Below are positions 1-41,235 of a DNA stretch of 64,000 bases, one piece after another. The stretch is from IMG/VR virus record IMGVR_UViG_3300034375_009028; one strand, 5' to 3'. The position numbers were made by a program, and so were the translations under genes. Origin of the DNA: a virus (taxonomy: Duplodnaviria; Caudoviricetes). The notes under the pieces are model-generated. The model was not told the origin of the DNA, searched no databases, and worked only from the letters and a program-made list of their open reading frames with translations. The stretch's first letter is position 1. Every line of letters begins with the position of its first letter.

Positions 1-3000
1 ATTTCCTTGGTTACCTTGGTTACCTTGCAATCCCTGGTTACCCTGGTTGCCTTGATTACCCTGATTACCTTGGTTGCCTTGGTTGCCTTGGAGTCCTTGA
101 TTTCCTTGGTTACCTTGATTACCTTGGTTACCTTGATTACCTTGGTTGCCCTGGTTGCCTTGGCGTCCTTGGTTACCTTGTAGACCCTGGTTACCCTGAT
201 TACCCTGGTTACCCTGGTTACCTTGAGTACCTTGAGGTCCAGCAACAGAAATACTTACAATTAGTTCAGTATTATTACTGATAGTTGTGGTTGTTGATAT
301 AACATTAGTAATTGAAATAGTGTGCCATCCACCAGCACCAGAAGCATTTTGAGTAACTCCTGTAATTTCATATACATTGTATGCTGTTAAATCATTAGCA
401 AGACCAATTCTGATGAATCCTCTCTTGTTTACCGATCCATATTCAGTAATTGTTTGTAGGAATGTGTCAAGATTTACATTATCACTGTTTGTATTATCAA
501 TATAAACTGCTGTTGCACTAGCAATATTTGCATTATTAAATCTTAAATTACCACTTCCAGGATCACTTGCAGTGGTTGAATTATTATAGAAATAATTGTA
601 ACTATTTTCAGAATCTCTACCTTTAATACCCTGGTTTCCTTGAAGACCTTGATTACCTTGGAGACCTTGAGCACCTGCAGGAGTAAAGTTAATTGATAAC
701 TGTTCATTATTTCCTGGTAAAGTACCAGAAATGTAGGTAACAGGTATTCTATAATATCCAGTTTGAGCAATAACATCTCCACTAACTGCAAAAGCATTTA
801 CTGTAGTTTGGTTGGAGTCAGAAGAAGTTATATACAAATAACCTCTAACCAATCCAGTATTTGTTACAGTATCATCCCATGTGTTATACCATGCCGTCTG
901 ATTGTTACCTAGATCATCTAAGTTATCAATATAAAATTCAGTAACAGATGCAATATTGCTATTGTTATATCTTACGACACCATTTCCAGGATCTGCATTA
1001 GTAGTGGTTGTAGAGAAGATATATGGATTTCCTCCACGACTACCAGTATTACCCTGAAGACCCTGATTACCTTGATTGCCCTGGTTACCCTGGTTACCTT
1101 GACGACCTTGATTGCCTTGGAGTCCTTGATTGCCTTGAACACCTTGCTGTCCACTCTTAGTAAAGACAACACTCAAATCTTGCCCATTTGATGGTAAAGA
1201 ACCAGTAAGGTTATTTACAGGTACGCTGTAGTATGTTCCATTATTAACTACTGGACCATCAACAAAGAATACTGCTGTTACATTTGATGTACTATCAGCA
1301 CTACTAATATAAATGTAACCTCTATTAAGTCCATTATTTACTATTGTATCATCAAAAGTATCGTACCAACCAGTTTGATCAACACCAAATGAATCTGTAT
1401 CATCAAAATAAAGAGTGCTTACGTTTGCAATATTGGAATCATTGAATCTAATAACACCTTGTCCACCTGTTCCTGCAGTTGTAGTAGTATCAAAGGAATA
1501 CCTAACACCACCACGGTCTCCAAGCATACCCTGGTTACCCTGGTTACCCTGATTACCTTGGTTACCCTGATTACCTTGGTTGCCTTGATTACCCTGGTTG
1601 CCTTGATTACCTTGAAGACCTTGATTACCTTGGTTACCTTGATTTCCTTGGTTACCTTGATTGCCTTGAAGTCCTTGATTGCCTTGAAGTCCCTGATTAC
1701 CTTGATTACCCTGGTTACCTTGGTTGCCTTGGTTGCCCTGGTTACCTTGATTGCCTTGGAGACCTTGGTTACCTTGATTACCTTGATTACCTTGGTTGCC
1801 TTGCAATCCTTGTAATCCTTGCAATCCTTGTAGACCTTGATTACCCTGATTACCCTGGTTGCCCTGATTACCCTGGTTGCCCTGGTTACCTTGATTACCT
1901 TGATTACCCTGGTTGCCTTGAAGTCCCTGATTACCTTGGTTACCCTGATTACCCTGGTTGCCCTGGTTACCTTGATTACCTTGATTACCCTGGTTACCTT
2001 GAACACCCTGAACACCTGTCTTTGTAAAGAATACCGTTACTGCTTGACCATTTGTGGGGAGATTACCACTTAGATAAGTAACTGGTACTCTATAATATGA
2101 AGTATTGTTCTCAACAGTATTGTTTACATAGAATACCGCAGTAACATTAGTTGCAGAGTCTGCGGAAGTAATGTAAATATATCCTCTATTGAGTCCCGCA
2201 TTAACTACCGTATCGTCCCAAGTGTCATACCAACCAGTCTGATCAACACCGAATTCATCAGTGTCATCAAAATACATGTTTGTAACATTGGCAATTGTTC
2301 CATTATTAAATCTAAGTCTTCCTTGACCACCAGATCCCGCTGTAATAGTTGTGTCAAATAAGTAAGGAACACCACCACGGTCTCCAAGCATACCCTGATT
2401 ACCCTGGTTGCCCTGGTTACCTTGATTACCTTGGTTTCCTTGATTGCCTTGGAGACCTTGATTTCCTTGGTTACCCTGGTTACCCTGGTTACCTTGATTA
2501 CCTTGGTTTCCTTGATTGCCTTGGAGACCTTGATTTCCTTGGTTACCCTGGTTACCTTGGTTACCTTGATTGCCTTGGAGACCTTGGTTACCCTGATTAC
2601 CTTGGTTACCTTGTAGACCTTGGAGACCTTGTAGACCTTGGAGACCTTGCAATCCTTGATTACCTTGGTTGCCTTGGTTACCCTGATTACCTTGGTTGCC
2701 TTGGTTACCCTGATTACCTTGGAGTCCCTGGTTACCCTGATTACCCTGATTACCTTGGAGTCCCTGGTTACCCTGATTACCCTGGTTGCCCTGGTTACCT
2801 TGATTACCTTGGAGTCCTTGATTACCTTGGTTACCTTGATTACCTTGATTGCCTTGGTTACCCTGATTACCTTGGAGACCCTGAATACCTGTCTTTGTAA
2901 AGAAGACTGTAAGTTCTTGATTGTTTGTAGGTAGATTTCCACTTACAAAAGTAACAGGGATGGTATAATAAGTACCATTATCAGTAACAACATCATCTAC

Positions 3001-6000
3001 ATAGAAGATTGCTGTAGTATTACTGGAACTATCTGCAGACGTAATATATACATATCCGCGATTTGAACCAGAATTGACTTGAGTATCATCCCAAGTATCA
3101 TACCAACCAGTTTGATCAACAGCAAATGAATCTGTATCATCAAAATAAAGTTCAGTTACACTACCAATTGTTCCACTATTGAATCTAATTCTTCCTTGAC
3201 CACCAGATCCTGCGGTAGTAGTTGTGTCAAATAAGTAAGGAATGCCACCACGGTCTCCAAGCATACCTTGGTTACCCTGATTACCCTGGTTACCTTGATT
3301 ACCTTGGTTACCTTGATTGCCTTGGAGACCTTGGTTACCCTGGTTACCTTGATTACCTTGGTTACCCTGGTTACCTTGATTGCCTTGGAGACCTTGGTTA
3401 CCCTGGTTACCTTGATTACCTTGGTTACCCTGGTTACCTTGATTGCCCTGAAGTCCCTGGTTGCCTTGATTGCCCTGGTTACCTTGATTACCCTGATTAC
3501 CTTGATTACCCTGGTTACCTTGGTTACCTTGATTACCTTGGAGTCCCTGATTACCTTGGTTACCTTGAGTACCTTGAATACCAGCAAGACCAAAACTTAA
3601 GAATATTGCTTCATTATTAGAGAATCCAGTACCAGCACTAACATTTGAAGTTAAATCTAATGTACTCCATCCATTAGCACCAGCAGACTCTAAAATAACT
3701 CCACCAAGTCTAAAAATATAGAAGTTATTTGCATTTGTTTGAGACTGAATCTTAACAAATCCCTTATTTCCAGGAGATCCATATTGATCAACGAATGAAT
3801 AGAAGTCACTTAAATCTGATCCATTTTCATCTCTATGATCAAGGTATATTTCTGTACTATTCTCAATTGTACTATTATCAAATCTTATAAATCCTTGTCC
3901 AGGATCTGCGGCTGTAGTGCTTGTTGAATAGAAGTATTCAAAAGTATCTCCAGAACTTACACCATCTGGACCTTGAAGACCTTGTAAACCTTGAACACCT
4001 TGGACACCAGATCTTGTAAAGTTAAATACTAACTTTTCAGAGTTGGTTGGTAAAGATCCAGATACATATGCAACAGGAACTCTGTAATAACCAGTCTCTG
4101 CTGTAACTGCTCCTACAACATTAAAGATATTTACATTAGTATCTGCACTATCTGCAGATGTTATTACAAGATTACCACGACTTAAACCTGCATTTAGTTG
4201 AGTATCATCCCAAACATCATACCAAGCGGTCTGATCATTACCTAGGTCATCTAAGTTATCAATATAAATTTCGGTTACAGAACCAATGGTTGCATTATTA
4301 TATCTAAAATTACCATTACCAGGATCTCCATTCTGTGTAGTTGTAGAGAAGATATAAGGAACCCCACCACGGTTGCCGTAGTTACCCTGTAGACCTTGAT
4401 TGCCTTGATTACCCTGGTTACCTTGATTACCTTGGTTGCCCTGGTTACCTTGGTTACCCTGCAATCCTTGATTACCTTGGTTACCCTGGTTACCTTGATT
4501 ACCTTGGTTGCCCTGGTTACCTTGGTTACCCTGCAATCCTTGATTACCTTGGTTACCCTGGTTACCTTGGTTACCCTGGAGACCTTGCAGACCTTGGAGA
4601 CCTTGGAGACCTTGGTTGCCCTGGTTTCCTTGATTACCTTGATTACCCTGGTTACCTTGATTACCCTGGTTACCTTGGAGACCTTGGTTGCCCTGGTTAC
4701 CTTGATTACCTTGGTTACCTTGGAGTCCTTGGAGACCTTGGTTACCTTGAACACCTTGAGGTCCTATAAACGAGAAGCTAATGAATACTGTATCGTTATT
4801 AGAGAAGTTTCCAGAAGATGCATAGAATTGGGTAATGTCAAATGAGAACCATCCAGTAGCACCACCAGTTTGTAATTGAGTATTACCAACAACAAACAAA
4901 TGATATTGGGATGCATCAACAGGATCTACAATCTTAACAAGAGCTTGTCTCTCTAGAATTCCATAGTTCTCAATATCTGCAAGGAAGTCTGACAGATCAG
5001 TTCCACCACTATCAGTGTTGGCAATGTACAACTCAGTTGCACTAGACTGAGTTGAGAAATTATCAAATCTTAATCTTCCAGATCCAGGATTTGCTGCACC
5101 TGTTGAAGAACTGAATGTATAAACATAAGTAGTTTCAGCATTTCTACCACTAAGACCTTGGTTACCTTGTAAACCTTGTGTACCTGTTTTAGTGAAGAAT
5201 ACTGTTAATTCTTGTCCATTAGAAGGAAGAGATCCAGTTAAATAGTTTACTGGAATACTATAATAAGAACCATTATCAGATACAGAACCATCTACTTCAA
5301 AGATAATACTTGTGTTTGTAGAAGAATCTGAGGTAGTAATATAAATGTATCCACGATTCTCTCCAACATTAACTTGAGTATCGTCCCAAGTATCATACCA
5401 AGCGGTTTGATCTATTCCAAATAGATCTGTATCATCAAAATAAAGTGTAGTTGCGTTTGCAATAGCTGGACTATCAAATCTTAATACCCCTTGACCACCA
5501 GAACCTGCTGCGGTAGTAGTATCAAACTCATAAGGAATACCACCACGGTCTCCAAGCATACCCTGCAGACCTTGGTTTCCTTGAAGTCCCTGATTACCTT
5601 GATTACCCTGGTTACCTTGATTACCTTGGTTGCCCTGGTTACCTTGGTTACCCTGCAATCCTTGATTACCTTGGTTACCCTGGTTGCCTTGGTTACCTTG
5701 AAGACCTTGGAGACCTTGGAGACCCTGTAATCCTTGGTTGCCCTGGTTACCCTGGTTACCCTGGTTTCCTTGGTTGCCTTGATTACCCTGGTTACCCTGG
5801 TTACCTTGTAGACCTTGAATACCTGTCTTTGTAAAGAAGATGGTTATATCTTGTGCATTAGAAGGAATATTACCACTCAAATAAGTAACAGGTATTTCCT
5901 GATAATCAGTTTGGTCTGTTATTGCCCCAGTTACTTCAAATATTGCACTAACATTAGTTGCAGAATCTGCTGAGGTAATATAAATGTATCCCCTACCTTC

Positions 6001-8670
6001 TCCAGCAATAACTTGAGTATCATCCCAATTTGCAACCCAAGCAGAGTGATCTACTCCAAAGATATCATTATCATCAACATATATTTGAGTTACACTACCA
6101 ATGGTACTATTATTAAATCTAAAATCTCCATCACCTGAAGATCCAGATCCAGTAGCAGTATTAAATCTATAAGGAATACCACCACGGTCTCCAAGCATAC
6201 CCTGGTTACCTTGTAAACCTTGATTACCCTGGTTTCCTTGGTTGCCTTGATTACCCTGGTTGCCCTGGTTACCTTGGTTGCCTTGATTACCCTGTAGACC
6301 TTGGAGACCTTGGAGACCTTGTAAACCTTGATTACCCTGGTTGCCCTGATTACCTTGGTTACCTTGATTACCTTGGTTACCCTGATTACCTTGGTTGCCT
6401 TGAAGTCCCTGGTTACCTTGGTTACCTTGGTTACCCTGATTACCTTGGTTGCCTTGGTTGCCCTGGTTACCTTGGACACCCTGAGTTCCACTCTTAGTGA
6501 ATAGTACCGTTACTTCTTGACCATTTGAAGGAATATCACCACTTACATAAGTTACAGGAACAGTCCAATAAGTAGTGTTATCTATTACAGCATCATCAAC
6601 ATAGAATATAGAAGTTACATTACCACCAGAATCTGCCGAGGTTACATAGAGGTATCCACGATTTAGTCCAGCATTTAACTGAGTATCGTCAAATGTATCG
6701 TACCAACCAGTTTGATCAGATCCAAAAGAATCTGTATCATCAAAATATAATTCTGTAATATTTGCTGCGGTAGCATTGTTATACCTTAATGATCCTTGTC
6801 CACCCGTACCTGCTGTGGTAGTAGAATCAAAGTCATAACGAATACCACCACGGTCTCCAAGCATACCCTGGTTACCTTGGTTACCCTGATTACCTTGATT
6901 GCCCTGGTTACCCTGGTTACCCTGATTACCTTGGTTGCCTTGGTTACCTTGAAGACCTTGGAGACCTTGGAGACCCTGGTTGCCTTGATTACCTTGGTTG
7001 CCTTGATTACCTTGATTACCTTGGTTGCCCTGGTTTCCTTGTAAACCTTGAATACCAGTTCTACTATGGAACAGTGTTAAAATGTCACCATTAGAAGGTA
7101 ATGTACCAGTTACATACTCTACTGAAATTTTATAGTATCCAGATGCAACTTGATTAACACCATTAATTCTAAAAATGTTTACTGTAGTTCCAGATAAAAT
7201 ATCCGCAGAGATAAAGTATAAGTATCCTCTATCTGGATTCTCAGTATCATCCCAAACATCATACCAAGCAGTCTGATTATTACCAAGATCATCTAAGTTA
7301 TCAATATAAATTTGAGTAACTGAGTTTATTGCCGAGTTGTTATATGCAACATTACCATTTCCAGGATCTTGATCTGTTGTACTCTGAACCCATTCATAAC
7401 GAATACCTCCTCTATCACCAATACCACCCTGAAGACCTTGAAGTCCTTGGTTACCTTGGTTACCTTGGAGACCCTGGTTACCTTGGTTGCCTTGACGACC
7501 TTGGTTACCCTGGAGACCTTGAGCACCTACACCCTGTAATCCCTGGTTACCTTGTAGACCCTGTAAACCTTGTAGACCCTGTACACCTTGAGAACCTACA
7601 CCTTGAAGTCCCTGGTTACCTTGATTGCCCTGATTGCCCTGATTACCTTGGTTGCCCTGGTTACCCTGATTACCTTGTAGACCTTGTAAACCTTGGTTGC
7701 CCTGATTTCCTTGGTTACCTTGGTTACCTTGGTTACCCTGGTTGCCCTGGTTACCTTGATTGCCCTGATTACCTTGACGACCTTGTGTTCCTTGGACACC
7801 TTGAATAGATACGTCAGTAATCGTTGCTTTCTTTAAGCTAGAATCACTAATATCATATAAAAGAAGTAGATCTGACTGTTGAATATCTCCAGTTAATTGT
7901 GGTTTTTGGAATATAAGATTTGGAGATACATTAGTAAGATAAGAATTTGTAACTCCTGTACCAAGAGTTGTTTCTTCTAATACAGTATTTCCATTAATTT
8001 TATAAACTTTTCCACTTGGAACGTTTACATTTTCTGTAATGTAAATAGATGCTGTTCCAGATTGCCAAACAATATCTTTTCTAATTGATGTTGAACCGAT
8101 ACCAATACCAGCACCATCTAGGAGAGCATTATCTCCTACCGATTTTGCAATTCCAATCTTGAAGTCTGGAATATCCAGAGTACCAGTACTAATTGTGATT
8201 GTTTCACCATCAACAACTAGGTTGCCTTTAATTCTAACAATACCTGTGTTATCACCAACACCTGCTGGGTCAAGGGTAATTGTTGATGGACCAGTGATAG
8301 AATCACTATTTACAATAATTGCTTGTCCAAGTGCTCCAGTCTTAAATGATGTACCAGTAACAATACCAGCAACATAAAGATTACTGTTGGCATCAAATCT
8401 TAGATCATCAGAACCTTGTGGGAGATTAGATGCATTTTTGAAGATTACCTGATATGGATCACCTTCTACTGGACCAGCAACACCCTGAAGACCTTGGTTG
8501 CCCTGAAGACCTTGCAGACCTTGATTGCCTTGAAGACCCTGAAGACCTTGTAAACCCTGTAAACCTTGTAGACCTTGGTTGCCTTGAAGACCTTGATTAC
8601 CCTGATTACCTTGGTTGCCCTGGTTACCTTGAAGACCCTGAAGACCTTGCAGACCTTGAGCACCTTGTAA
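1..8670 (-). repeat. Coding 9-bp tandem repeats (GGT AAY CAR) encoding about 14 collagen-like (GNQ/GLQ)n blocks of about 10 to 170 aa
   Basis: Plus-strand units ttggttacc/ctgattacc/ttggttgcc recur throughout 1-8670. Confidence 0.95.
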
Positions 8671-9843
8671 AGCAGCACTCAAAATTGTATCTTTCTTTAA
8701 TAAACCATCAGTCTGATCATAGAAGAGAATAAAATCCTCTGGTTGTGCCTGAGTTTGTACCCTATCATTAATAAATCCAGGATTTGCAGATCTAAGATTT
8801 GAATTTGTAATTCCTAATCCAAGCGTAGTTGCATTTAATACTTCATTTTCAGCAACATAGTATGCTCCATCTGGTTCATGAACACCAAAGTTCACACTAG
8901 ATTGCCAAGCATCAATACTGAATTTGTATTTTATTGATTTTCTTACTGATGTAGAACCAATACCAATAACAGATCCGTCAAGATTAGATTCTAATGTCTC
9001 ATTAGCATTAAAGATAATAGAATCTGTTCCAAGAACAACATCATTATCGAAGAATGTAATTTGACTACTACTAAATCCAATCGGAGTTCCTTTGATTTGA
9101 AGGTCACCCTCAATGAATACAACACCATCTTGGAATGGTACAATACTAATTGATGCTGGACCTAAAATTTTATCACCAGTAAGTGCTAATGAACTATTTG
9201 TATCAAATCCAGTATAGAATGCATCTGCAGTTAGAATACCAGAAATAATATTATCAAAAGATGGAGATGATCCTTGGGTAACAACACCCTTTGGTCCCTT
9301 GTACCTATAAGCAACAAGGTAAACATTTCCAGAGTTTACTCCAGAAGGGACTACAGTTCCATTGAAGTTAAGTACACCTGCAGCATAATCAAAGAACCAA
9401 GTATCATTTGATCCAGCACCAGCTGCAGATAGCTGCACACCACCAGAAGCAGGATCACCTCTATAAACTTTAACAATGTAATCTGGACCAAAGCTAGGAT
9501 CAATCCAATCACCCAGAAGTGTTGAACTGTTATTATTATACGTTGCTCTACATAAAAATGCTCTATTACCACTAACAGTGGGGTCTGCCGTTAATCTTAA
9601 AGCACTTGCTGTTCCATATACCTGTACAATAGAACTAGTTGCTGAAGGTGGAGTTCCTGGAATATCTCCACTCTCTGACCAAATAAGATCAGAACGAATT
9701 ACCAGTGGCGAAGGAATAGCTTCCGCAAATGGTGCTTTTTTGGTGCCTGATAAAGTAGAGTCCTCAGCTATACCAGTTTTGGATGCGGTATAACCTATCT
9801 TCTTTAATAGAAAATCTAGCTTTTGTTCTTGAGATGCTGCCAC
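1..9843 (-). CDS. Giant collagen-like tail fibre or virion fibre protein, >3280 aa, 3' end outside the window
   Basis: Not in the ORF track. GTG start at 9843 behind AAGGGG; translates MAASQEQKLDFLLKKIGYTASKTGIAEDS. The frame was spot-checked by hand at about 8460, 6000, 4260, 240 and 1 and is consistent, though not every codon was read. (G-X-Q)n blocks alternate with a repeated globular domain. Confidence 0.88.
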   Translation of the reverse strand, partial: MAASQEQKLDFLLKKIGYTASKTGIAEDSTLSGTKKAPFAEAIPSPLVIRSDLIWSESGDIPGTPPSATSSIVQVYGTASALRLTADPTVSGNRAFLCRATYNNNSSTLLGDWIDPSFGPDYIVKVYRGDPASGGVQLSAAGAGSNDTWFFDYAAGVLNFNGTVVPSGVNSGNVYLVAYRYKGPKGVVTQGSSPSFDNIISGILTADAFYTGFDTNSSLALTGDKILGPASISIVPFQDGVVFIEGDLQIKGTPIGFSSSQITFFDNDVVLGTDSIIFNANETLESNLDGSVIGIGSTSVRKSIKYKFSIDAWQSSVNFGVHEPDGAYYVAENEVLNATTLGLGITNSNLRSANPGFINDRVQTQAQPEDFILFYDQTDGLLKKDTILSAALQGAQGLQGLQGLQGNQGNQGNQGNQGLQGNQGLQGLQGLQGLQGLQGNQGLQGLQGNQGLQGVAGPVEGDPYQVIFKNASNLPQGSDDLRFDANSNLYVAGIVTGTSFKTGALGQAIIVNSDSITGPSTITLDPAGVGDNTGIVRIKGNLVVDGETITISTGTLDIPDFKIGIAKSVGDNALLDGAGIGIGSTSIRKDIVWQSGTASIYITENVNVPSGKVYKINGNTVLEETTLGTGVTNSYLTNVSPNLIFQKPQLTGDIQQSDLLLLYDISDSSLKKATITDVSIQGVQGTQGRQGNQGNQGNQGNQGNQGNQGNQGNQGNQGLQGLQGNQGNQGNQGNQGNQGNQGNQGLQGVGSQGVQGLQGLQGLQGNQGLQGVGAQGLQGNQGRQGNQGNQGLQGNQGNQGLQGLQGGIGDRGGIRYEWVQSTTDQDPGNGNVAYNNSAINSVTQIYIDNLDDLGNNQTAWYDVWDDTENPDRGYLYFISADILSGTTVNIFRINGVNQVASGYYKISVEYVTGTLPSNGDILTLFHSRTGIQGLQGNQGNQGNQGNQGNQGNQGNQGLQGLQGLQGNQGNQGNQGNQGNQGNQGNQGNQGNQGMLGDRGGIRYDFDSTTTAGTGGQGSLRYNNATAANITELYFDDTDSFGSDQTGWYDTFDDTQLNAGLNRGYLYVTSADSGGNVTSIFYVDDAVIDNTTYWTVPVTYVSGDIPSNGQEVTVLFTKSGTQGVQGNQGNQGNQGNQGNQGNQGNQGLQGNQGNQGNQGNQGNQGNQGNQGNQGLQGLQGLQGLQGNQGNQGNQGNQGNQGNQGNQGNQGLQGNQGMLGDRGGIPYRFNTATGSGSSGDGDFRFNNSTIGSVTQIYVDDNDIFGVDHSAWVANWDDTQVIAGEGRGYIYITSADSATNVSAIFEVTGAITDQTDYQEIPVTYLSGNIPSNAQDITIFFTKTGIQGLQGNQGNQGNQGNQGNQGNQGNQGNQGLQGLQGLQGLQGNQGNQGNQGNQGLQGNQGNQGNQGNQGNQGNQGNQGLQGNQGLQGMLGDRGGIPYEFDTTTAAGSGGQGVLRFDSPAIANATTLYFDDTDLFGIDQTAWYDTWDDTQVNVGENRGYIYITTSDSSTNTSIIFEVDGSVSDNGSYYSIPVNYLTGSLPSNGQELTVFFTKTGTQGLQGNQGLSGRNAETTYVYTFSSSTGAANPGSGRLRFDNFSTQSSATELYIANTDSGGTDLSDFLADIENYGILERQALVKIVDPVDASQYHLFVVGNTQLQTGGATGWFSFDITQFYASSGNFSNNDTVFISFSFIGPQGVQGNQGLQGLQGNQGNQGNQGNQGLQGNQGNQGNQGNQGNQGNQGNQGLQGLQGLQGLQGNQGNQGNQGNQGLQGNQGNQGNQGNQGNQGNQGNQGLQGNQGNQGNQGNQGNQGNQGNQGLQGNYGNRGGVPYIFSTTTQNGDPGNGNFRYNNATIGSVTEIYIDNLDDLGNDQTAWYDVWDDTQLNAGLSRGNLVITSADSADTNVNIFNVVGAVTAETGYYRVPVAYVSGSLPTNSEKLVFNFTRSGVQGVQGLQGLQGPDGVSSGDTFEYFYSTSTTAADPGQGFIRFDNSTIENSTEIYLDHRDENGSDLSDFYSFVDQYGSPGNKGFVKIQSQTNANNFYIFRLGGVILESAGANGWSTLDLTSNVSAGTGFSNNEAIFLSFGLAGIQGTQGNQGNQGLQGNQGNQGNQGNQGNQGNQGNQGNQGNQGLQGNQGNQGNQGNQGNQGNQGLQGNQGNQGNQGNQGNQGNQGLQGNQGNQGNQGNQGNQGNQGMLGDRGGIPYLFDTTTTAGSGGQGRIRFNSGTIGSVTELYFDDTDSFAVDQTGWYDTWDDTQVNSGSNRGYVYITSADSSSNTTAIFYVDDVVTDNGTYYTIPVTFVSGNLPTNNQELTVFFTKTGIQGLQGNQGNQGNQGNQGNQGNQGLQGNQGNQGNQGNQGNQGLQGNQGNQGNQGLQGNQGNQGNQGNQGNQGNQGNQGLQGLQGLQGLQGLQGNQGNQGNQGLQGNQGNQGNQGNQGNQGLQGNQGNQGNQGNQGNQGNQGNQGLQGNQGNQGNQGNQGNQGNQGMLGDRGGVPYLFDTTITAGSGGQGRLRFNNGTIANVTNMYFDDTDEFGVDQTGWYDTWDDTVVNAGLNRGYIYITSADSATNVTAVFYVNNTVENNTSYYRVPVTYLSGNLPTNGQAVTVFFTKTGVQGVQGNQGNQGNQGNQGNQGNQGNQGNQGLQGNQGNQGNQGNQGNQGNQGNQGNQGNQGLQGLQGLQGLQGNQGNQGNQGNQGLQGNQGNQGNQGNQGNQGNQGNQGLQGNQGLQGNQGNQGNQGNQGNQGLQGNQGNQGNQGNQGNQGNQGNQGNQGNQGMLGDRGGVRYSFDTTTTAGTGGQGVIRFNDSNIANVSTLYFDDTDSFGVDQTGWYDTFDDTIVNNGLNRGYIYISSADSTSNVTAVFFVDGPVVNNGTYYSVPVNNLTGSLPSNGQDLSVVFTKSGQQGVQGNQGLQGNQGRQGNQGNQGNQGNQGLQGNTGSRGGNPYIFSTTTTNADPGNGVVRYNNSNIASVTEFYIDNLDDLGNNQTAWYNTWDDTVTNTGLVRGYLYITSSDSNQTTVNAFAVSGDVIAQTGYYRIPVTYISGTLPGNNEQLSINFTPAGAQGLQGNQGLQGNQGIKGRDSENSYNYFYNNSTTASDPGSGNLRFNNANIASATAVYIDNTNSDNVNLDTFLQTITEYGSVNKRGFIRIGLANDLTAYNVYEITGVTQNASGAGGWHTISITNVISTTTTISNNTELIVSISVAGPQGTQGNQGNQGNQGNQGLQGNQGRQGNQGNQGNQGNQGNQGNQGNQGLQGNQGNQGNQGNQGNQGNQGLQGNQGNQGN
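241..7425 (-). repeat. About 12 copies of a 120-130 aa non-collagen domain (GDRGGIPY..FDTTT.AG.GGQG..RFN...YFDD.D.F..DQTGWYDTWDDT....RGYIYITSAD)
   Basis: The GDRGG motif (ccaccacggtctcc) or a variant is seen at about 1017, 1506, 2369, 3245, 4365, 5540, 6179, 6845 and 7404; three divergent copies lie at about 241-610, 3590-3965 and 4765-5155. Confidence 0.85.
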
Positions 9844-22886: not shown

Positions 22887-22894
22887 TATTTATA
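22887..22894 (-). promoter_or_regulatory. T4-type late promoter TATAAATA
   Basis: Perfect consensus 35 nt upstream of the giant ORF start. Confidence 0.8.
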
Positions 22895-24991: not shown

Positions 24992-25009
24992 TTCTTTTAG
25001 ATCTTAGTA

Positions 25010-34627: not shown

Positions 34628-35418
34628 TAAATTACAATCCAATCAGGGCAATAAAGATCCTTTGTGTCCAGGTGTGCATTTCCAGGTCCAAACCATTTTT
34701 GTGGGGCAATTACCTTTTCGCTATTGGACAACCATGCACCCCACCAAGAGAATGAAGAGTTTGCAATAATATGTCCACTACACAAGGACATTAAACACAT
34801 ATCAACATAGTTAATATTATTTTCAGCAATCATAAATCTTTCATCATCAAACAAAGATTGTTGATTGCACCATTCAGTATCATCAGAAAAAATAATCACT
34901 GTTCTATCATTATCAAAATGAGATAGAGCTTCTTCATAATAAGACAATTCCAAAGCATGATGATTTGGATTGGTAGTATAATCTGTTCTTCGAATATGAA
35001 GTGCTACTGGATTATCTACAGTTTGAATCATTTCTTTTGCTGGTTCCAAATACTCAGATCCAAAAGTAAAGTCTTCTTTGATCTCATCTTTGATGTGAGC
35101 AAAGTATTTTTCAGATTGAAAGTATCCTTCAAGATTTACCCACTTTGGGCAATTATTAAATAACTCTTCATCAAAAGCAAAGGAACTTTCTTTTACAGTT
35201 TCTCTTTCTCCACAAACAAATTGAACATTAAGTGCCTTTAGTCCTTTTAAAGTAAAGGCATAAAATAATTGATGATCAACATATTCGTTCGGAACTTTTT
35301 TTGGAGGAGGGATCATCCAATTTAAATTATTATTAGCAGCAATTCCACGCAGTGATGCGTATTGGAACATTTGATTTCCAAGTCTGCCAAGTTTTCCTAA
35401 GTTATTAAATCCTATCAT
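34627..35418 (-). CDS. Alpha-1,2-fucosyltransferase, GT11
   Basis: GRLGNQMFQYA, GYFQSEKYF, HIRRTDY, IIANSSFSWWGAWL. Confidence 0.92.
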   Translation of the reverse strand: MIGFNNLGKLGRLGNQMFQYASLRGIAANNNLNWMIPPPKKVPNEYVDHQLFYAFTLKGLKALNVQFVCGERETVKESSFAFDEELFNNCPKWVNLEGYFQSEKYFAHIKDEIKEDFTFGSEYLEPAKEMIQTVDNPVALHIRRTDYTTNPNHHALELSYYEEALSHFDNDRTVIIFSDDTEWCNQQSLFDDERFMIAENNINYVDMCLMSLCSGHIIANSSFSWWGAWLSNSEKVIAPQKWFGPGNAHLDTKDLYCPDWIVI

Positions 35419-36340
35419 AATTACCTAAAAACCAATTGTACGTTAACTCTAATCCTTCACGAAGATCATACTGATGTTTGAATCCAAGATTTTTTAATTT
35501 ATCAACATTCATCAATTTCCTGGGAGTACCATTTGGTTTACTAGTATCCCATTTTATTTCACCTTTAAATCCTATAACTTCTGACATTGTTTCTGTCAGT
35601 TCTTTAATTGATATATCTTCACCTGTTCCAATGTTAATGATCTCAGGTTCACTATATTCTTGCATACAGAATACAGTCGCTTCAGCCATATCCTCAATAA
35701 ACAAAAATTCTCTAAGAGGAGAACCATCTCCCCAGCACCAAAATTCTGAGTCACCATTTAGTTTTGCTTCATTCATTCTACGCATAATTCCAGGAATAAC
35801 ATGACTGGATTCTGCATTAAAATTATCATTTGGACCGTATAGATTTGTTGGTTGTAATGCTATTGCATCAAATCCATATTGCTGCCTATATGACTGGCAC
35901 ATTTTTATACCAGCAATTTTTGCAATCGCATATGCATCATTAGTCGGTTCTAAAGGACCAGACATTAACTGATCTTCAGTAATAGGAATAGTAGGATGCT
36001 TTGGGTAAATGCAAGATGACCCAAGAAAGAGAAGTTTTTTTACTCTATTCTTATATGATGCTTCAATTACATTTGATTGAATCATCAGATTTTGATAGAT
36101 AAAATCTGCAGGATAAGTGGCATTAGCGTATATACCTCCAACTTTTGCTGCAGCAAGAAAAACATAATCTGGTTCTGCCTCTTGCAAATAAAGTTGAGTT
36201 TCTACCTGATCCGTAAAATCAACCTCTTTTCTAGTTGCAGATATAATATTCCTATATCCTTTTTTACGAAGATTTCTCACTATTGCTGATCCAACTAAAC
36301 CATTAGCACCAGCAACCAATATTTTAGAATCACTGTCCAT
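35405..36340 (-). CDS. fcl: GDP-L-fucose synthase; start revised to MDSDSKIL
   Basis: [57 protein letters not shown]. Confidence 0.95.
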
Positions 36341-37337
36341 AGATACACATATCCTCAATTAATTGATCAAATGTAATTTTTGGTTCCCACCCTAATTTTT
36401 GCTTTGCTTTTGTTGGATCTCCAAGAAGAGATTCAACTTCAGATGGTCGGAAGTATTTAGCATTTACTTTTACAACTGTTTTACCAGTATTTTTATCAAC
36501 GCCAATCTCTTCTATTCCTTCTCCACTCCATTCAATATTCATCCCAAAATAAAAAGCAGATTTTTCAACAAATTCTTTAACAGAATATTGCTCTCCTGTA
36601 GCAATAACATAATCATCTGCTTCCTCTTGTTGAAGCATCAACCACATAGCTTCAACATAATCTTTTGCATGACCCCAATCCCTTTTTGCATTTAGATTTC
36701 CTAAGTATAAGCATTCCTGAAGACCTGCAGAAATTCTAGACAATCCTCTAGTAATTTTACGAGTCACAAAAGTTTCACCACGACGAGGAGACTCATGATT
36801 GAATAAAATTCCAGTACAAGCATACATTCCATAAGATTCACGATAATTCTTTGTGATCCAATATCCATAAAGTTTAGCAACACCATATGGAGACCTTGGA
36901 TAAAAAGGTGTGGTTTCTTTTTGAGGTACTTCTTGCACTAATCCATATAACTCTGAAGTAGATGCTTGATATATCCTACAATGACGTTCTAATCCCAAAA
37001 TCCTCACTGCTTCAAGAATACGAAGAGTTCCCAGTCCATCAACATTACCAGTATACTCTGGCAATTCAAAAGACACCTTTACATGACTTTGAGCCGCTAG
37101 ATTATAAATTTCATCTGGTTGAGACTTCTGCAATACATGAACAATATTTGCAGAATCAGTCATGTCCCCATAATGAAGATGAAGATTTGGATGATTAAAG
37201 ATATGATCAATACGATGTGTGTTGATCATAGAAGCACGACGAATGACTCCATGAACTTCATATCCTTTCTCAAGAAGAAGTTCTGTAAGGTATGAACCAT
37301 CTTGCCCAGTAATTCCAGTTATTAATGCACGTTTCAT
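36330..37337 (-). CDS. gmd: GDP-mannose 4,6-dehydratase
   Basis: [63 protein letters not shown]. Confidence 0.97.
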
Positions 37338-38062: not shown

Positions 38063-38682
38063 GGAAGAATCCAATCTGGCACATGGAATGGTTCATTTAT
38101 ATACCAATCAAAAATAATACAGCATTTTGAATATTGGTTCCTTCTAGGATAATATTGTGTACTTCGATATTTTGTTCCATCAAATATTACTAACCTATTC
38201 TCAAATGTCTTTATGTGATCAGTAGATACTCCACGTTCATTTACTACAATATAAGTATTTGGATCGATATTCTTTAACAAATATATTGATCTTATAAATC
38301 GTTTTTTTACTTGACCTTCAGGGTCTTTTATTTTAGATATTGTATCACTATAACATCTTCCTTTGGTAGATGTTGGTACATTTCTTTCAGCAAAACAAGA
38401 AAACGGTGTGAGCGAGTATTCATCAATTCCACGACTTTTTATGTATGAAGTAACATGCTTTTTAACTTCCAAACAAAATACGTTCCAACAGTTTAAAGAA
38501 TATGGAAAATACTTATCAGAAGTTAAAGCCAGTCCGTGACAATCTATAATAGATTTTGTTATATCAATATAATCAGTAGATAATAAATTAAGAGTCAAAT
38601 GAAGATTGCATTGAATATATAATTCATTTCTGATCTTCTCACTAAAAACATCATCTATAATCAAGAATTTATTTGTTTCCAT
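38059..38682 (-). CDS. Degenerate 2OG-oxygenase-like protein lacking iron ligands
   Basis: LIIDDVFS, RSIYLLKN, ENRLVIFDG and CIIFDW fit the fold pattern, but no HxD/HxH or distal His is seen. Confidence 0.45.
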   Translation of the reverse strand: METNKFLIIDDVFSEKIRNELYIQCNLHLTLNLLSTDYIDITKSIIDCHGLALTSDKYFPYSLNCWNVFCLEVKKHVTSYIKSRGIDEYSLTPFSCFAERNVPTSTKGRCYSDTISKIKDPEGQVKKRFIRSIYLLKNIDPNTYIVVNERGVSTDHIKTFENRLVIFDGTKYRSTQYYPRRNQYSKCCIIFDWYINEPFHVPDWILP

Positions 38683-39493
38683 ATATTTTATTCATATAAT
38701 TGGAAGAATGTAGTGGAGATATTTTTTCAAACATCTTTGTGTTATTTGGACACATAGAACAAACAGGTTCTTCTTGTCTACTAAAAAAATCAATAACCTT
38801 AATGTCACTATCTGTTGGTAGTAATGGTTTATATCTCAAATAAGGATTCCATTTAGATGACAATTTATCTCCATACTTTTGTTTTTGTACTGGCAAATAC
38901 GCAAGTGGCGCACATTTATATATTTTAAAATCATTCAAGGTAAAATTATTTTGACCACCTGGGCAGTTATCCCAAGACTTTTTATAGTCATAAGTACCAA
39001 GTGGCTCTATAGAAGACCCATACCCACTATACGTTTTTAACCAGTAATTAGATGCATCATGAATTCTATAATTCACACCAGATTCAATTATTTTTGAAAT
39101 AGACTTTTCAAATAACCTAACATAATTTAAATCTTTGGAATGCTTTGTTATTGTCAGTATGCATTTATTTTTCTTTAGAGCCTCAGTTAATCCAGGAACT
39201 CTATCAAAAAGAAGTCCATTAGACACCAACTCAAGTTCTTGATCATCTTGAACATCCCAAACTTCTTTGGTCATGTATATTATATCTACAATTTGTTTAT
39301 TGAGTAATGGTTCTCCACCCAACATAGAAAGTTCTAATGGTCTTATTCTCTTATTCCAAGAGAGATACCATTTCTCCAACAAATCTAAACTAAAATTTTG
39401 CCTATAACCATCATTAGTATAATGCCCGCACCCCTGACATGTAAAATTACATGAATGAGTTACGTGCCATTCTAAATGAGATATTGTCAACAT
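38669..39493 (-). CDS. Radical SAM protein with a Cys-containing C-terminal extension
   Basis: CNFTCQGC (CxxxCxxC), GGEPLLN, SNGLL, and C-terminal WDNC..KC..CSMCP (Twitch/SPASM-like). Confidence 0.88.
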   Translation of the reverse strand: MLTISHLEWHVTHSCNFTCQGCGHYTNDGYRQNFSLDLLEKWYLSWNKRIRPLELSMLGGEPLLNKQIVDIIYMTKEVWDVQDDQELELVSNGLLFDRVPGLTEALKKNKCILTITKHSKDLNYVRLFEKSISKIIESGVNYRIHDASNYWLKTYSGYGSSIEPLGTYDYKKSWDNCPGGQNNFTLNDFKIYKCAPLAYLPVQKQKYGDKLSSKWNPYLRYKPLLPTDSDIKVIDFFSRQEEPVCSMCPNNTKMFEKISPLHSSNYMNKIYGNK

Positions 39494-39986: not shown

Positions 39987-40038
39987 TGTCTTGAATGTTG
40001 ACCTTAAAGTATAATGTCTAGGGTAAATAATTACCCTA

Positions 40039-40277: not shown

Positions 40278-40288
40278 ATGAAGAGAAG

Positions 40289-40420: not shown

Positions 40421-40443
40421 CGATCTTGTTTGGATGGTTCGCT

Positions 40444-40472
40444 ATTATAATATAGCATTTTTAGAAAGTCAA
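40444..40472 (-). promoter_or_regulatory. Sigma70-type early promoter
   Basis: TTGACT-17 nt-TATAAT. Confidence 0.85.
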
Positions 40473-40657
40473 CAAGCCTCATCGTGATTTGTATAGATTT
40501 GTAGGAGTGAATCATCATACGGAATCATTACAGCATTATTTCCACCCTCCCCAACAATAACTATATGCTCTCCTTTTTCAACCCTATCAATCAATTCATC
40601 CCAGTTCTGTTGAAATTCTTTAACTGTATATTTTGGAAGTGATTCGTAATCTTTCAT
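40469..40657 (-). CDS. Phd/YefM antitoxin-like protein, 62 aa
   Basis: TVKEFQQNWDELIDRVEKGEHIVI.GEGGNNAVMIP follows the Phd/YefM N-terminal pattern. Confidence 0.6.
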   Translation of the reverse strand: MKDYESLPKYTVKEFQQNWDELIDRVEKGEHIVIVGEGGNNAVMIPYDDSLLQIYTNHDEAC

Positions 40658-41235
40658 TTTAATTTAGGTCCATACATCCAAGTAACTAGAGAAGTTCTAT
40701 TTCCTCTTAATATTGGAGTTACCCTATGAGGTGTTCTAGAATCAAAAATAATAATACTTCCCCTTTCTTTTGGTGCTTTAATTATATTACCAGAGTAATC
40801 CATAAGTTCCAAATCACCTCCATCATAATCTGCAGGATCCGTCACTAATAAACTAGCACTTAACTTCCTAGTATAATTGGAATACTGTGAAGTTCCATAA
40901 TCACAATGCCAATGGTAATGACCCTCTTTACCATATGAGGTTACTTGTATAGACTGTAATATATTTAAATCATATTCCCAACACTGACTATTTGCTACTC
41001 CAATGTAATGGGAAAATAAACTAGATACCCAATGAGTTTCATACCACCATCTAATTTTAGAATTTCTAATTTTTAAATCTTTAAATCCAACATTAGTATC
41101 ACTTCCACCAACTCTTGCTTCTTCTGGATCTTCAACGTTTTCAAGATCTTCAATTTCTTCAAGAATTAGATCAATAAGTTTTGGTGGAATTACTTCTTTA
41201 TAAAATATAAAAGAATCTGCAACAACGTGGGTCAT
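40654..41235 (-). CDS. 2OG-Fe(II) oxygenase (PKHD/P4Hc-like)
   Basis: HYHWHCD (HxD), RKLSAS, GGDLE, HRVTPI.RGNRTSLVTW. Confidence 0.9.
   Translation of the reverse strand: MTHVVADSFIFYKEVIPPKLIDLILEEIEDLENVEDPEEARVGGSDTNVGFKDLKIRNSKIRWWYETHWVSSLFSHYIGVANSQCWEYDLNILQSIQVTSYGKEGHYHWHCDYGTSQYSNYTRKLSASLLVTDPADYDGGDLELMDYSGNIIKAPKERGSIIIFDSRTPHRVTPILRGNRTSLVTWMYGPKLK

What the first reader, a model, noticed from the sequence alone, without database searches (positions are those of the whole stretch)
1..41235. Candidate phage collagen-modification system: collagen fibre plus 2OG hydroxylases plus five GT25-like enzymes
Seen: one genome segment holds a giant collagen, two intact 2OG-Fe(II) oxygenases (37409, 40654), five GT25-like genes (28294 and four at 60586-63954) and nucleotide-sugar synthesis genes. 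Established: GT25 includes the animal procollagen galactosyltransferases (COLGALT), and mimivirus hydroxylates and glycosylates its own collagen-like proteins. Inference: the phage may decorate its own fibre. Because the fibre lacks Lys and Pro, the acceptor would have to be Asn (beta-hydroxy-Asn or direct N-linkage) or Thr/Ser in the beads, which would be new chemistry. The alternative is modification of host LPS, since bacterial GT25s are LOS galactosyltransferases.
Basis: inference. Interest (0 to 1): 0.75.

Follow-up and report, generated by a model that had tools for sequence, protein, structure and literature searches.

The report
Cyanophage collagen fibre beside glycan islands
A marine T4-like cyanophage encodes a giant proline- and lysine-free collagen-like tail fibre and, in the same 64 kb, several sugar-building gene islands; the parts are real, but they are separate, widely shared modules rather than the animal or giant-virus type of collagen-modifying kit, so decoration of the fibre is possible and unproven.

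Summary
The window comes from an undeposited T4-like cyanomyovirus. The GNQ/GLQ collagen fibre is real: 413 triplets, with 1 Lys and 4 Pro inside the tracts. One 2OG oxygenase (40654-41235) is canonical. The other (37409-38062) has no Pfam match and no visible HxD. One GT25 gene passes Pfam, and the other four are divergent paralogues in the same phage family (phrog_2835).

These parts do not form one system. Replication genes, a tRNA array and cpeT/ho1 lie between them.

True phage collagen-modifying cassettes exist in S-PRM1, S-CAM9 and roseophage CRP-6. Each has a lysyl hydroxylase + COLGALT-like GT25 + PLOD-GT fusion next to a G-x-Lys fibre, and the scan had seen such fusions before on other DNA. 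The window and 47 related records lack this enzyme, and the window's collagen has no lysine acceptor.

The 28294-type GT25 travels with GT11, GMD and GT6 in a glycan-building island found in many collagen-less cyanophages. A wcaG RNA gates that island here.

Collagen-bearing cyanomyoviruses were nevertheless all island-bearing: 9/19 against 0/12, uncorrected for phylogeny. Fibre glycosylation therefore stays open at roughly 0.2-0.3.

The parts
1..9843 (-). N-terminal 3281 aa of a giant collagen-like fibre (the gene runs off the window). It has a 393-aa N-terminal domain, 16 GNQ/GLQ tracts and 12 globular beads.
   Evidence: PF01391. Residues 1-190 resemble the 'tail protein' of phiCbK-like phages. 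The beads resemble tail-fibre proteins of Pelagibacter phage HTVC010P and a collagen protein of Actinomycetia phage DSL-LC01.
9864..11975 (-). 703-aa protein directly upstream of the fibre gene; paralogue of 25010-27028
   Evidence: phrog_8578; paralogy seen through tblastn on relative G002
12761..22852 (-). 3363-aa giant fibre-like protein; its ends match a tail-fibre protein of S-PRM1
   Evidence: 44-49% identity to S-PRM1 gp156 at both ends
22887..22894 (-). TATAAATA, a T4-type late-promoter-like motif 35 nt upstream of the giant gene's ATG
   Evidence: all 7 matches in the window lie on the coding strand, though the total number is what chance gives
24362..27028 (-). Second copy of the two-gene fibre module: a 672-aa paralogue of 9864-11975 plus a 209-aa protein like the fibre's N-terminal domain
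27078..28297 (-). CpeT bilin-lyase-like gene and heme oxygenase gene, lying between the fibre genes and glycan island I
   Evidence: PF06206 131 bits, PF01126 257 bits
28294..29106 (-). GT25 glycosyltransferase, the widespread cyanophage type
   Evidence: PF01755 53.9 bits; phrog_2835 E 4.5e-122; 99 phage records; its only PDB relative is mimivirus R655, E 5.5e-5
29090..30040 (-). Glycosyltransferase (phage family; weak GT4-like match)
   Evidence: phrog_33732 E 1.7e-183; PF13439 24.8 bits, below the cut-off
31229..31831 (-). Sulfotransferase-like protein
   Evidence: PF03567 36.1 bits
31832..33205 (-). HAD phosphatase + sugar-nucleotidyltransferase fusion
   Evidence: PF13419 87.5 bits, PF00483 41.2 bits
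33908..34642 (-). GT6 glycosyltransferase
   Evidence: PF03414 74.7 bits
34627..35418 (-). GT11 (alpha-1,2-fucosyltransferase family)
   Evidence: PF01531 93.9 bits; next to the GT25 gene in 62 of 80 related loci
35405..37337 (-). GDP-mannose 4,6-dehydratase and an Fcl-like epimerase/reductase (the GDP-fucose route)
   Evidence: PF16363 525 bits; PF01370 218 bits
37409..38062 (+). 217-aa protein on the opposite strand; possibly a divergent DSBH protein, not shown to be an intact 2OG oxygenase
38669..39493 (-). Radical SAM protein, the first gene after the wcaG RNA
   Evidence: PF04055 34.1 bits
39515..39702 (-). wcaG RNA motif (39609-39702) followed by a strong intrinsic terminator (39533-39515) just before the radical SAM gene
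   Evidence: RF01761 60.4 bits against a gathering score of 42; terminator
40654..41235 (-). Canonical 2OG-Fe(II) oxygenase (P4H-like family); a 12/12 sigma-70 consensus lies at 41370-41342
   Evidence: PF13640 57.8 bits; motif read; promoter; homologues in 351 phage records
43245..43589 (-). Mannose-6-phosphate isomerase cupin
   Evidence: PF01050 166.6 bits
58396..60578 (-). UDP-sugar dehydrogenase and an amidinotransferase-like protein heading glycan island II
   Evidence: PF03721/PF00984; weak ADI-fold hit; a similar block in S-SCSM2R is annotated as inosamine amidinotransferase
60586..63954 (-). Four tandem divergent GT25-like paralogues (60586-61389, 61380-62180, 62210-63112, 63103-63954)
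   Evidence: phrog_2835 E 1e-47 to 1e-25; alignment A1. The acidic MEDD motif is replaced by SRDI in 61380-62180 and by MEDN in 63103-63954.

Best explanation
The segment is a juxtaposition of independent cyanomyovirus modules, not one collagen-modification system.

(1) A late tail-fibre block. It holds the giant 3363-aa protein, a duplicated two-gene fibre module, and the GNQ/GLQ collagen fibre. The fibre's Pro- and Lys-free G-x-Gln triple helix most likely needs no hydroxylation (inferred).

(2) Glycan island I (28.3-39.5 kb). It is gated by a wcaG RNA plus terminator. It makes GDP-fucose with GMD and the Fcl-like enzyme, and it builds a short fucosylated, probably sulfated oligosaccharide. 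The inferred order is: the GT25 enzyme adds a beta-hexose, GT11 adds alpha-1,2-fucose to it, and GT6 adds an alpha-Gal/GalNAc, giving a blood-group-like motif.

(3) Glycan island II (58.4-64 kb). Its four extra GT25-like paralogues extend a second, amino- or guanidino-sugar chain.

The acceptor is not shown. I judge a host-envelope glycoconjugate or another non-collagen acceptor more likely than the collagen helix. The single canonical 2OG oxygenase is a generic cyanophage gene with no demonstrated link to the fibre.
For: MODULES ARE SEPARATE: cpeT/ho1, 12 tRNAs, RNR and primase lie between them.

GT25 BELONGS TO A GLYCAN CLUSTER: In 80 related viral loci the 28294-type GT25 sits with GT11 (62/80), an epimerase (53/80), GMD (28/80) and GT6 (20/80). 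It sits with fibre genes in at most 4/80 and with a collagen ORF in 2/80. GT11 presence mirrors GT25 presence across genomes, 18/19 against 0/12.

THE ISLAND EXISTS WITHOUT COLLAGEN: Ten of 19 GT25-bearing complete genomes have no collagen. These include S-SCSM1, which holds the closest deposited homologues of both the GT25 (67%) and the 2OG oxygenase (50%) and carries 24 2OG oxygenases (PMC9602691).

THE FIBRE TYPE EXISTS WITHOUT GT25: 28 of 36 long viral records with the bead domain have no GT25-like gene, including 0 of 11 that are at least 90% complete.

REGULATION: wcaG RNAs typically precede exopolysaccharide genes (PMC2864571). Sigma-70-type promoters precede the 2OG gene and the wcaG region, whereas a late-type TATAAATA precedes the fibre block.

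NOT THE CANONICAL SYSTEM: Real phage collagen cassettes look different, and the window and 47 related records lack their PLOD-GT domain.

LITERATURE: Such clusters are read as LPS or cell-wall genes (PMC1079782, PMC9602691, PMC12801897).
Against: Collagen-bearing cyanomyoviruses were all island-bearing (9/19 against 0/12, p=0.005), and multi-copy GT25 genomes were 5/5 collagen-positive.

In S-CAM7 the orthologous GT25 gene lies directly upstream of four collagen-bearing fibre genes.

In the close relative G002, GT11-like and GT25-like genes also lie downstream of the collagen gene, so glycan genes flank the fibre block on both sides.

The only solved relative of the GT25 is mimivirus R655, a putative collagen glycosyltransferase (PMC9546862).

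The window encodes no initiating phosphoglycosyltransferase, flippase, polymerase or ligase for a lipid-linked pathway.

Pattern scans of 185,579 prokaryote genomes found no cellular relative of this GT25 type.

The order of the GT steps and the promoter classes are inferred from family knowledge and motif scans only.
Confidence: 0.5

Rival explanations
1. Virion glycosylation. The island glycosyltransferases, including some GT25-like paralogues, decorate the phage's own fibres in the cytoplasm before assembly. The sugars go on Thr/Ser of the beads or on Asn/Gln of the helix, without any prior hydroxylation.
For: Genome-level co-occurrence of collagen with the island and with GT25 copy number. 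Adjacency in S-CAM7 and in 2 of 80 loci. Glycan genes on both sides of the fibre block in G002. The GT25's nearest solved relative is viral, mimivirus R655. No lipid-carrier machinery is found in the window. No cellular relatives were found. Phage-encoded virion glycosylation is known in mycobacteriophages (Freeman 2023, cited in PMC12801897), and collagen-fibre modification cassettes exist in other phages.
Against: Half of the GT25-bearing genomes have no collagen. Most bead-collagen viruses have no GT25. The association is not corrected for phylogeny and is equally strong for GT11. No acceptor motif is conserved, since the X position varies among N, L, T, V, A and S in relatives. The island sits behind a wcaG RNA and sigma-70-like promoters rather than a late promoter.
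Confidence: 0.25
2. The 2OG oxygenases hydroxylate the GNQ helix (for example to beta-hydroxy-Asn), and the GT25-like enzymes then glycosylate the hydroxyl groups. This would be a lysine-free analogue of the animal and mimivirus pathway.
For: A 2OG oxygenase, a sulfotransferase and GT25-like genes share a genome with a collagen fibre. Iyer et al. predicted hydroxylation followed by sulfation of collagen-like and tail-collar proteins in bacterial operons (PMC2938197). Bona fide phage cassettes also contain two PF13640 oxygenases.
Against: The one sure oxygenase belongs to a family present in 351 phage records, collagen-free ones included, and lies behind its own sigma-70-like promoter 31 kb from the fibre gene. 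The second candidate lacks a visible metal-binding carboxylate. No Asp/Asn beta-hydroxylase family match was found. Asn is not conserved in the relatives' collagens. The GT25-likes show no COLGALT1 similarity, whereas S-PRM1 gp162 matches it at E 7e-23.
Confidence: 0.07
3. The glycosyltransferases, the amidinotransferase, the radical SAM enzyme and the oxygenases make a small glycosylated metabolite (aminoglycoside-like) rather than a macromolecular glycan.
For: The similar S-SCSM2R block is annotated with inosamine amidinotransferase, an AHBA-synthase-like aminotransferase and a radical SAM maturase, and its authors discuss it as antibiotic synthesis (PMC12801897). Iyer et al. proposed secondary-metabolite roles for cyanophage dioxygenase arrays (PMC2938197).
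Against: GT11, GT6 and GMD/Fcl are typical of cell-surface oligosaccharides. No scaffold-forming enzyme (cyclitol synthase, NRPS or PKS) was seen in the window.
Confidence: 0.08

Closest known systems
Animal LH3/PLOD3 + COLGALT1 and mimivirus L230/R699/R655 collagen lysine hydroxylation and glycosylation
   Same: A virus encodes both collagen-like proteins and GT25-family enzymes. The window's GT25 has mimivirus R655 as its only solved relative (E 5.5e-5).
   Different: The helix has no Lys (1 in 413 triplets). There is no lysyl hydroxylase domain, no PLOD-GT domain and no detectable COLGALT1 similarity, and the enzymes are not next to the fibre gene. R655's own activity is untested (PMC9546862).
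Phage LH/GT25/PLOD-GT fusion cassettes (S-PRM1 gp162, S-CAM9 gp218, S-8S53/55/56, roseophage CRP-6 gp58)
   Same: Marine phage; collagen-bearing tail fibre; PF13640 oxygenases and a GT25 domain in the genome.
   Different: In those phages one 590-614-aa enzyme lies one to three genes after a fibre whose collagen has Lys at Y (23/59, 22/59 and 26/99 triplets). In S-PRM1 this enzyme combines a COLGALT1-like GT25 (E 7e-23), an LH3/R699-like GT (E 4e-33) and an L230-like lysyl hydroxylase (E 1e-9). The window has neither the enzyme nor the lysines.
'LPS' / cell-wall glycan gene clusters of cyanomyoviruses (P-SSM2, S-SCSM1, S-SCSM2R, S-SM2, S-SSM7)
   Same: Same gene families, including orthologous GT25 (57-67% identity), GT11, GMD/Fcl, epimerases and wcaG RNA. 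P-SSM2 also combines a collagen-like ORF with 24 such genes (PMC1079782, PMC9602691).
   Different: Five GT25-like paralogues lie in this one window, whereas most genomes have one. Only S-SCSM2R has a comparable five. No product or acceptor is known for any of these clusters.
Bacterial GT25 lipooligosaccharide glycosyltransferases (Pfam PF01755, 'LPS biosynthesis protein')
   Same: 28294-29106 passes the family's Pfam threshold over the N-terminal half, including the acidic motif region.
   Different: It shows no similarity to the solved bacterial GT25 chains (8xlz, 8xc8) that S-PRM1 gp162 does hit. Four paralogues fall below the Pfam threshold. Pattern scans found no cellular relatives.
Predicted bacterial operons for hydroxylation and sulfation of collagen-like or tail-collar proteins (Iyer et al. 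2010, PMC2938197)
   Same: 2OG oxygenase, sulfotransferase and a collagen-like protein in one genome region.
   Different: Those operons are compact and use the beta-hydroxylase and PhyH families plus PAPS synthesis. Here the genes are scattered and the oxygenase is P4H-like.

Membership tests
Collagen triple-helix repeat protein (PF01391) | Long uninterrupted Gly-X-Y tracts recognised by the family profile | tested here: met
   16 tracts, 413 triplets; PF01391 57.7 bits on residues 780-1000
Collagen triple-helix repeat protein (PF01391) | Imino-acid (Pro/Hyp) content typical of known collagens | tested here: not met
   4 Pro in 413 triplets; X is mostly Asn or Leu and Y is Gln in 375 of 413. 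Relatives share Gln at Y.
Glycosyltransferase family 25 (PF01755) | Score above Pfam's gathering threshold (24 bits) | tested here: inconclusive
   Met by 28294-29106 (53.9 bits). Not met by 62210-63112 (19.7), 60586-61389 (16.3), 61380-62180 or 63103-63954 (no hit). All five belong to phrog_2835.
Glycosyltransferase family 25 (PF01755) | Acidic metal-binding (DxD-type) motif of GT-A enzymes | tested here: inconclusive
   MEDD is present in three paralogues. It is SRDI in 61380-62180 and MEDN in 63103-63954 (alignment A1). Which residues bind the metal was not established.
Animal/mimivirus-type collagen lysine hydroxylation-glycosylation system | Lys in the Y position of Gly-X-Y as acceptor | tested here: not met
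   1 Lys in 413 triplets, against 22-26 per tract in S-PRM1, S-CAM9 and CRP-6
Animal/mimivirus-type collagen lysine hydroxylation-glycosylation system | Lysyl hydroxylase (LH) domain and PLOD-type GT domain | tested here: not met
   No Pfam hit in any window ORF of 100 aa or more. PF25342 was found in only 1 of 48 related records, S-PRM1. The rest of this phage's genome could not be searched.
Animal/mimivirus-type collagen lysine hydroxylation-glycosylation system | COLGALT-type GT25 catalytic domain | tested here: not met
   The profile of the five paralogues and 28294-29106 alone hit only R655 in the PDB (E 0.003 and 5.5e-5), with no COLGALT1 hit. S-PRM1 gp162 hits COLGALT1 at E 7e-23.
Animal/mimivirus-type collagen lysine hydroxylation-glycosylation system | Enzyme genes adjacent to the collagen substrate gene (as in the phage cassettes) | tested here: not met
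   The nearest GT25 gene is 18 kb from the fibre gene and the sure oxygenase is 31 kb away.
2OG-Fe(II) oxygenase (PF13640) | Profile match plus the HxD...H metal triad and a 2OG-binding Arg | tested here: met
   For 40654-41235: 57.8 bits; H110-C-D112, H170, R180
2OG-Fe(II) oxygenase (PF13640) | The same features in 37409-38062 | tested here: not met
   No Pfam hit at E=10 and no His-x-Asp/Glu in the sequence. There are only a weak phrog_81 hit and language-model look-alikes. The fold model was unusable.
wcaG RNA (RF01761) | Covariance-model score above Rfam's gathering score | tested here: met
   60.4 bits against 42, full length 1-98, at 39609-39702(-)
Cyanomyovirus glycan ('LPS') island | GT25 linked with GT11 and nucleotide-sugar genes, present or absent as a unit | tested here: met
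   GT11 beside GT25 in 62/80 loci. GT11 is present in 18/19 GT25-bearing and 0/12 GT25-free genomes.

The most novel reading that the evidence does not exclude
The Pro- and Lys-free G-x-Gln collagen fibres of this cyanophage clade are glycosylated by the phage-specific GT25-like paralogues that flank the fibre genes. The sugars would go on Asn, Gln, Thr or Ser rather than on hydroxylysine. That would be a new collagen modification chemistry, and it would explain why collagen-bearing cyanomyoviruses always carry the glycan island and why GT25 copy number rises with it.
Probability: 0.15. Interest if true: 0.8.

Novelty: new member of a known kind. Interest (0 to 1): 0.4.

Why it matters
The substrates of the large 'LPS-like' gene islands of marine cyanophages have been unknown since 2005. 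This window can now also be set against bona fide phage collagen-lysine modification cassettes found in deposited genomes, and it fails that comparison. If the fibres are glycosylated all the same, the chemistry would be new. If they are not, the window is one more example of a known island type next to an unusual G-x-Gln collagen fibre.

Tried and rejected
- No whole genome is held for the window, and an exact 50-mer from it is absent from IMG/VR. The rest of this phage could therefore not be searched for an LH/PLOD enzyme or for further GT25 genes.
- The AlphaFold model of 37409-38062 without an alignment was unusable (pLDDT 29.6), and the MAFFT alignment with sure oxygenases was unreliable.
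- The model of the 150-aa repeat of the 3363-aa protein reached only pLDDT 57.8, so I did not search folds with it.
- IMG/VR contigs fetched through the RNR gene were mostly too short for genome-level counts.
- The type-1 bead and the N-terminal domain of the fibre have no homologue in any deposited cyanophage. Collagen therefore had to be scored with the generic PF01391 profile.
- Two pattern scans of 185,579 prokaryote genomes found no relative of the GT25-like family. These scans depend on motifs and do not prove absence.
- TATAAATA is no more frequent than chance in the window (7 found against 6.6 expected), and sigma-70-like sites are at background frequency. The promoter classes are suggestions only.
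- Heme oxygenase, tried as a non-glycan control gene, was too rare to be useful (2/31).
- A DNA-modification role for the GT25-likes was considered and dropped for lack of any supporting evidence.


Full report
WHAT THE WINDOW IS. Nearly all genes lie on the minus strand. The best DNA matches among 50,697 phage records are cyanomyoviruses (S-8S56, S-CAM9, S-PRM1), at about 74% identity over at most 12% of a 20-kb query, so this is an undeposited T4-like cyanophage. No whole genome is held for it. IMG/VR holds close relatives whose fibre beads are 91% identical (L001-L003). One of them, G002 (116.7 kb), is syntenic with the window from the glycan island through both giant genes.

CHECK OF THE OBSERVATION: THE COLLAGEN. 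ORF 1-9843(-) encodes 3281 aa and runs off the window. It has a 393-aa N-terminal domain, 16 Gly-X-Y tracts totalling 413 triplets (262 GNQ, 86 GLQ) and 12 beads, most of them 117 aa. Only 1 Lys and 4 Pro lie inside the tracts. PF01391 recognises the tracts. Residues 1-190 resemble a 'tail protein' of phiCbK-like phages. The beads resemble tail-fibre proteins of Pelagibacter phage HTVC010P and a collagen protein of an Actinomycetia phage. This fits a virion fibre.

CHECK OF THE OBSERVATION: THE OXYGENASES. 40654-41235 is a canonical 2OG-Fe(II) oxygenase: PF13640 at 57.8 bits, with H110-x-D112, H170 and R180. 37409-38062(+) is not shown to be one. It has no Pfam hit at E=10, a C-terminal phrog_81 hit at E=7e-4, language-model look-alikes in PF13640 clusters, no His-x-Asp/Glu, and a failed fold model.

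CHECK OF THE OBSERVATION: THE GT25 GENES. Of the five 'GT25-like' genes only 28294-29106 passes Pfam (53.9 bits). The four at 60586-63954 score 19.7 bits, 16.3 bits or nothing. All five belong to phrog_2835 and align at 25-31% identity. Two of them (61380-62180 and 63103-63954) have lost part of the acidic MEDD motif.

CHECK OF THE OBSERVATION: THE SUGAR GENES AND THE LAYOUT. GMD, an Fcl-like enzyme, GT11, GT6, a sulfotransferase, a HAD-nucleotidyltransferase fusion, a UDP-sugar dehydrogenase and a Man-6-P isomerase cupin are all present. The parts are not contiguous. Between them lie cpeT and ho1, a radical SAM gene, 12 tRNAs, RNR, primase and MazG.

WHAT A REAL PHAGE COLLAGEN-MODIFICATION SYSTEM LOOKS LIKE. 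While testing co-occurrence I found that S-PRM1 encodes a compact cassette directly after its tail-fibre genes. It consists of gp158, gp159, two PF13640 oxygenases (gp160, gp161) and gp162.
- gp158 is 1824 aa and has one 59-triplet tract of GPK/GEK/GQK/GPT, with Lys at Y in 23 triplets.
- gp162 is 614 aa. It joins a GT25 domain (PF01755 102 bits; COLGALT1 E 7e-23), a PLOD-type GT domain (PF25342 156 bits; LH3 E 4e-33; mimivirus R699 E 3e-31) and a lysyl hydroxylase domain (mimivirus L230 E 1e-9).

The same enzyme occurs in S-CAM9, S-8S53/55/56, a single-cell marine virus and roseophage CRP-6, in every case annotated as hypothetical or merely as a 2OG-Fe(II) oxygenase family protein. In S-CAM9 and CRP-6 it again follows a tail fibre whose collagen has Lys at Y (22/59 and 26/99 triplets). 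Earlier reports of this scan describe such fusions on other DNA. I found no paper on them in the searchable library.

The window fails every defining feature of this system. It has no Y-position lysine, no LH or PLOD-GT domain (also absent from 47 related records), no COLGALT1-grade similarity and no adjacency to the fibre gene.

WHAT THE GT25 GENES KEEP COMPANY WITH. Homologues of 28294-29106 occur in 99 phage records, nearly all cyanomyoviruses and usually in one copy. S-SCSM2R has five. The family fills 2990 metagenomic clusters. In 80 IMG/VR loci its neighbours within 10 kb are GT11 (62), an epimerase (53), GMD (28) and GT6 (20). Fibre genes appear in at most 4 loci and a collagen ORF in 2. 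Across 31 complete or near-complete genomes, GT11 is present in 18 of 19 GT25-bearing and 0 of 12 GT25-free genomes.

The GT25 enzyme is therefore a fixed member of an oligosaccharide-building island. From what is established about these families, I infer the following order. GT25 enzymes are inverting beta-hexosyltransferases. GT11 makes Fuc-alpha-1,2-Gal. GT6 adds alpha-1,3-Gal/GalNAc to that. So GT25 acts first, then GT11, then GT6, fed by GDP-fucose from GMD and the Fcl-like enzyme. This order is inference and was not tested.

REGULATION. A wcaG RNA (RF01761, 60.4 bits) followed by a strong terminator lies immediately upstream of the island's first gene. Such RNAs typically precede exopolysaccharide or high-light genes in marine cyanobacteria and cyanophages (PMC2864571). 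A perfect sigma-70 consensus precedes the 2OG gene, and a TATAAATA lies 35 nt before the giant fibre gene's ATG. These are motif matches at background frequency, so they only suggest early-type and late-type expression.

In 25 complete isolate genomes, PF01391 collagen above the cut-off occurs in 4 of 13 GT25-bearing genomes (S-SCSM2R, P-SSM2, S-CAM7, S-PRM1) and in 0 of 12 GT25-free ones (one-sided Fisher p=0.057). Six near-complete IMG/VR relatives all have GT25, and five of them have collagen. Adding them gives 9/19 against 0/12 (p=0.005). Genomes with two or more phrog_2835 matches are 5/5 collagen-positive, against 4/14 for single-copy genomes (p=0.011).

In S-CAM7 the orthologous GT25 gene lies directly upstream of four collagen-bearing fibre genes. 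In G002, GT11-like and GT25-like genes also lie downstream of the 4408-aa collagen ORF.

These results favour a link, but several points weaken it:
- The IMG/VR genomes were picked through GT25 or through similarity to the window.
- The G-x-Gln collagen genomes are probably one clade.
- GT25-bearing genomes are larger (about 215 kb against 178 kb).
- The association is with the island as a whole.
- Ten of 19 island-bearing genomes have no collagen. These include S-SCSM1, the closest deposited relative for both the GT25 and the oxygenase.
- The bead-type collagen occurs in 28 of 36 long viral records without any GT25-like gene.

THE ACCEPTOR QUESTION. The relatives' collagens are all Pro- and Lys-free, but their X position varies: GTQ, GLQ, GVQ, GAQ, GSQ, GIQ, GTT. 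Gln at Y is what is conserved. This weakens Asn as a required acceptor. From memory of host-guest peptide studies (Persikov et al. 2000; not checked here), Gln is among the better non-imino residues at Y. A G-x-Gln helix may therefore need no modification.

OVERALL READING. I put 0.5 on independent modules, with the islands building oligosaccharides for a non-collagen acceptor, most likely a host-envelope glycoconjugate as the literature assumes (PMC1079782, PMC9602691). Virion or fibre glycosylation without hydroxylation gets 0.25. It is supported by the co-occurrence, the flanking arrangement, the R655 relationship, the lack of lipid-carrier genes, and the absence of cellular relatives in pattern scans. 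The strict hydroxylase-plus-GT25 version gets 0.07, and a small-molecule product gets 0.08.

USE OF EARLIER NOTES. Notes of this scan on the same genome place further GT25-like genes just beyond the window's right end, in the head operon behind a late motif, and downstream of the fibre. I could not check these. If they are true, they would raise the virion-glycosylation reading.

Noticed in passing
L185 (S-PRM1 NC_055761.1 122963-131804); L277 (S-CAM9 NC_031922.1 27398-36254); L278 (Roseobacter phage CRP-6 MK613348.1 33029-36641): Deposited phage genomes carry an essentially unannotated (hypothetical or generic 2OG oxygenase) 590-614-aa enzyme; S-PRM1 gp162 fuses a COLGALT-like GT25 domain, a PLOD/LH3-type GT domain and a lysyl hydroxylase domain. 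It is encoded one to three genes after a tail fibre whose collagen tract has Lys at the Y position (23/59, 22/59 and 26/99 triplets). This is an animal/mimivirus-type collagen lysine modification kit in bacteriophages. The scan has reported similar fusions on other DNA.
   Followed up: yes
window 12761-22852 (-): The 3363-aa fibre-like protein holds 12 repeats of about 150 aa. Each has 'KCARD[IL]G[YF]' and a second conserved Cys. A profile of 11 of the 12 repeats hits only C-phycocyanin alpha chains among its best 27 PDB matches, at residues 79-113 (the Cys84 bilin site), with E 0.03-0.6. Pfam Phycobilisome gives 36 bits summed. Genes for CpeT lyase and heme oxygenase lie 4-5 kb upstream. The fold model was only pLDDT 57.8 (four helices).
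   Followed up: partly
window 39515-39702 (-): A wcaG RNA motif (RF01761, 60.4 bits) is followed by a strong intrinsic terminator (GGGGGATTGACCATCCCCC + T7) about 20 nt before the radical SAM gene that heads glycan island I. This looks like a riboswitch-type gate.
   Followed up: partly
L270, L271, L272, L273, L274, L002, L004, L006, L014 (IMG/VR relatives): A family of Pro- and Lys-free 'G-x-Gln' collagens, up to 4408 aa, runs through this cyanophage clade. Gln at Y is conserved while X varies (N, L, T, V, A, S, I).
   Followed up: partly
window 9864-11975 / 1-9843 versus 25010-27028 / 24362-24991: A duplicated two-gene fibre module. A roughly 700-aa protein is followed by a protein with the phiCbK-like N-terminal domain. 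One copy continues into the giant collagen and the other stops after 209 aa.
   Followed up: partly
window 37409-38062 (+): This is the only sizeable plus-strand gene in the island. It resembles phage PF13640 proteins by language-model features, but it has no His-x-Asp/Glu (candidates H137-N-N, H144-S-H, H146-K-G). It could be an inactive, three-His or halogenase-like variant.
   Followed up: partly
window 61380-62180 and 63103-63954 (-): Two of the four tandem GT25-like paralogues have lost part of the conserved acidic MEDD motif (SRDI and MEDN). They may be inactive or may use a different mechanism.
   Followed up: no
window 40206-45174 and 57834-57916 (-): Twelve tRNA genes, eleven of them in an array between the two glycan islands, are interspersed with small ORFs and late-type TATAAATA motifs (42829, 43129, 43927).
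   Followed up: no
L267 9779-12246 (G002, IMGVR_UViG_3300025853_009406): In the close relative, a GT11-like and a further divergent GT25-like gene lie about 5 kb downstream of the collagen gene. Glycan genes therefore bracket the fibre block. The corresponding region of this phage lies outside the window.
   Followed up: partly
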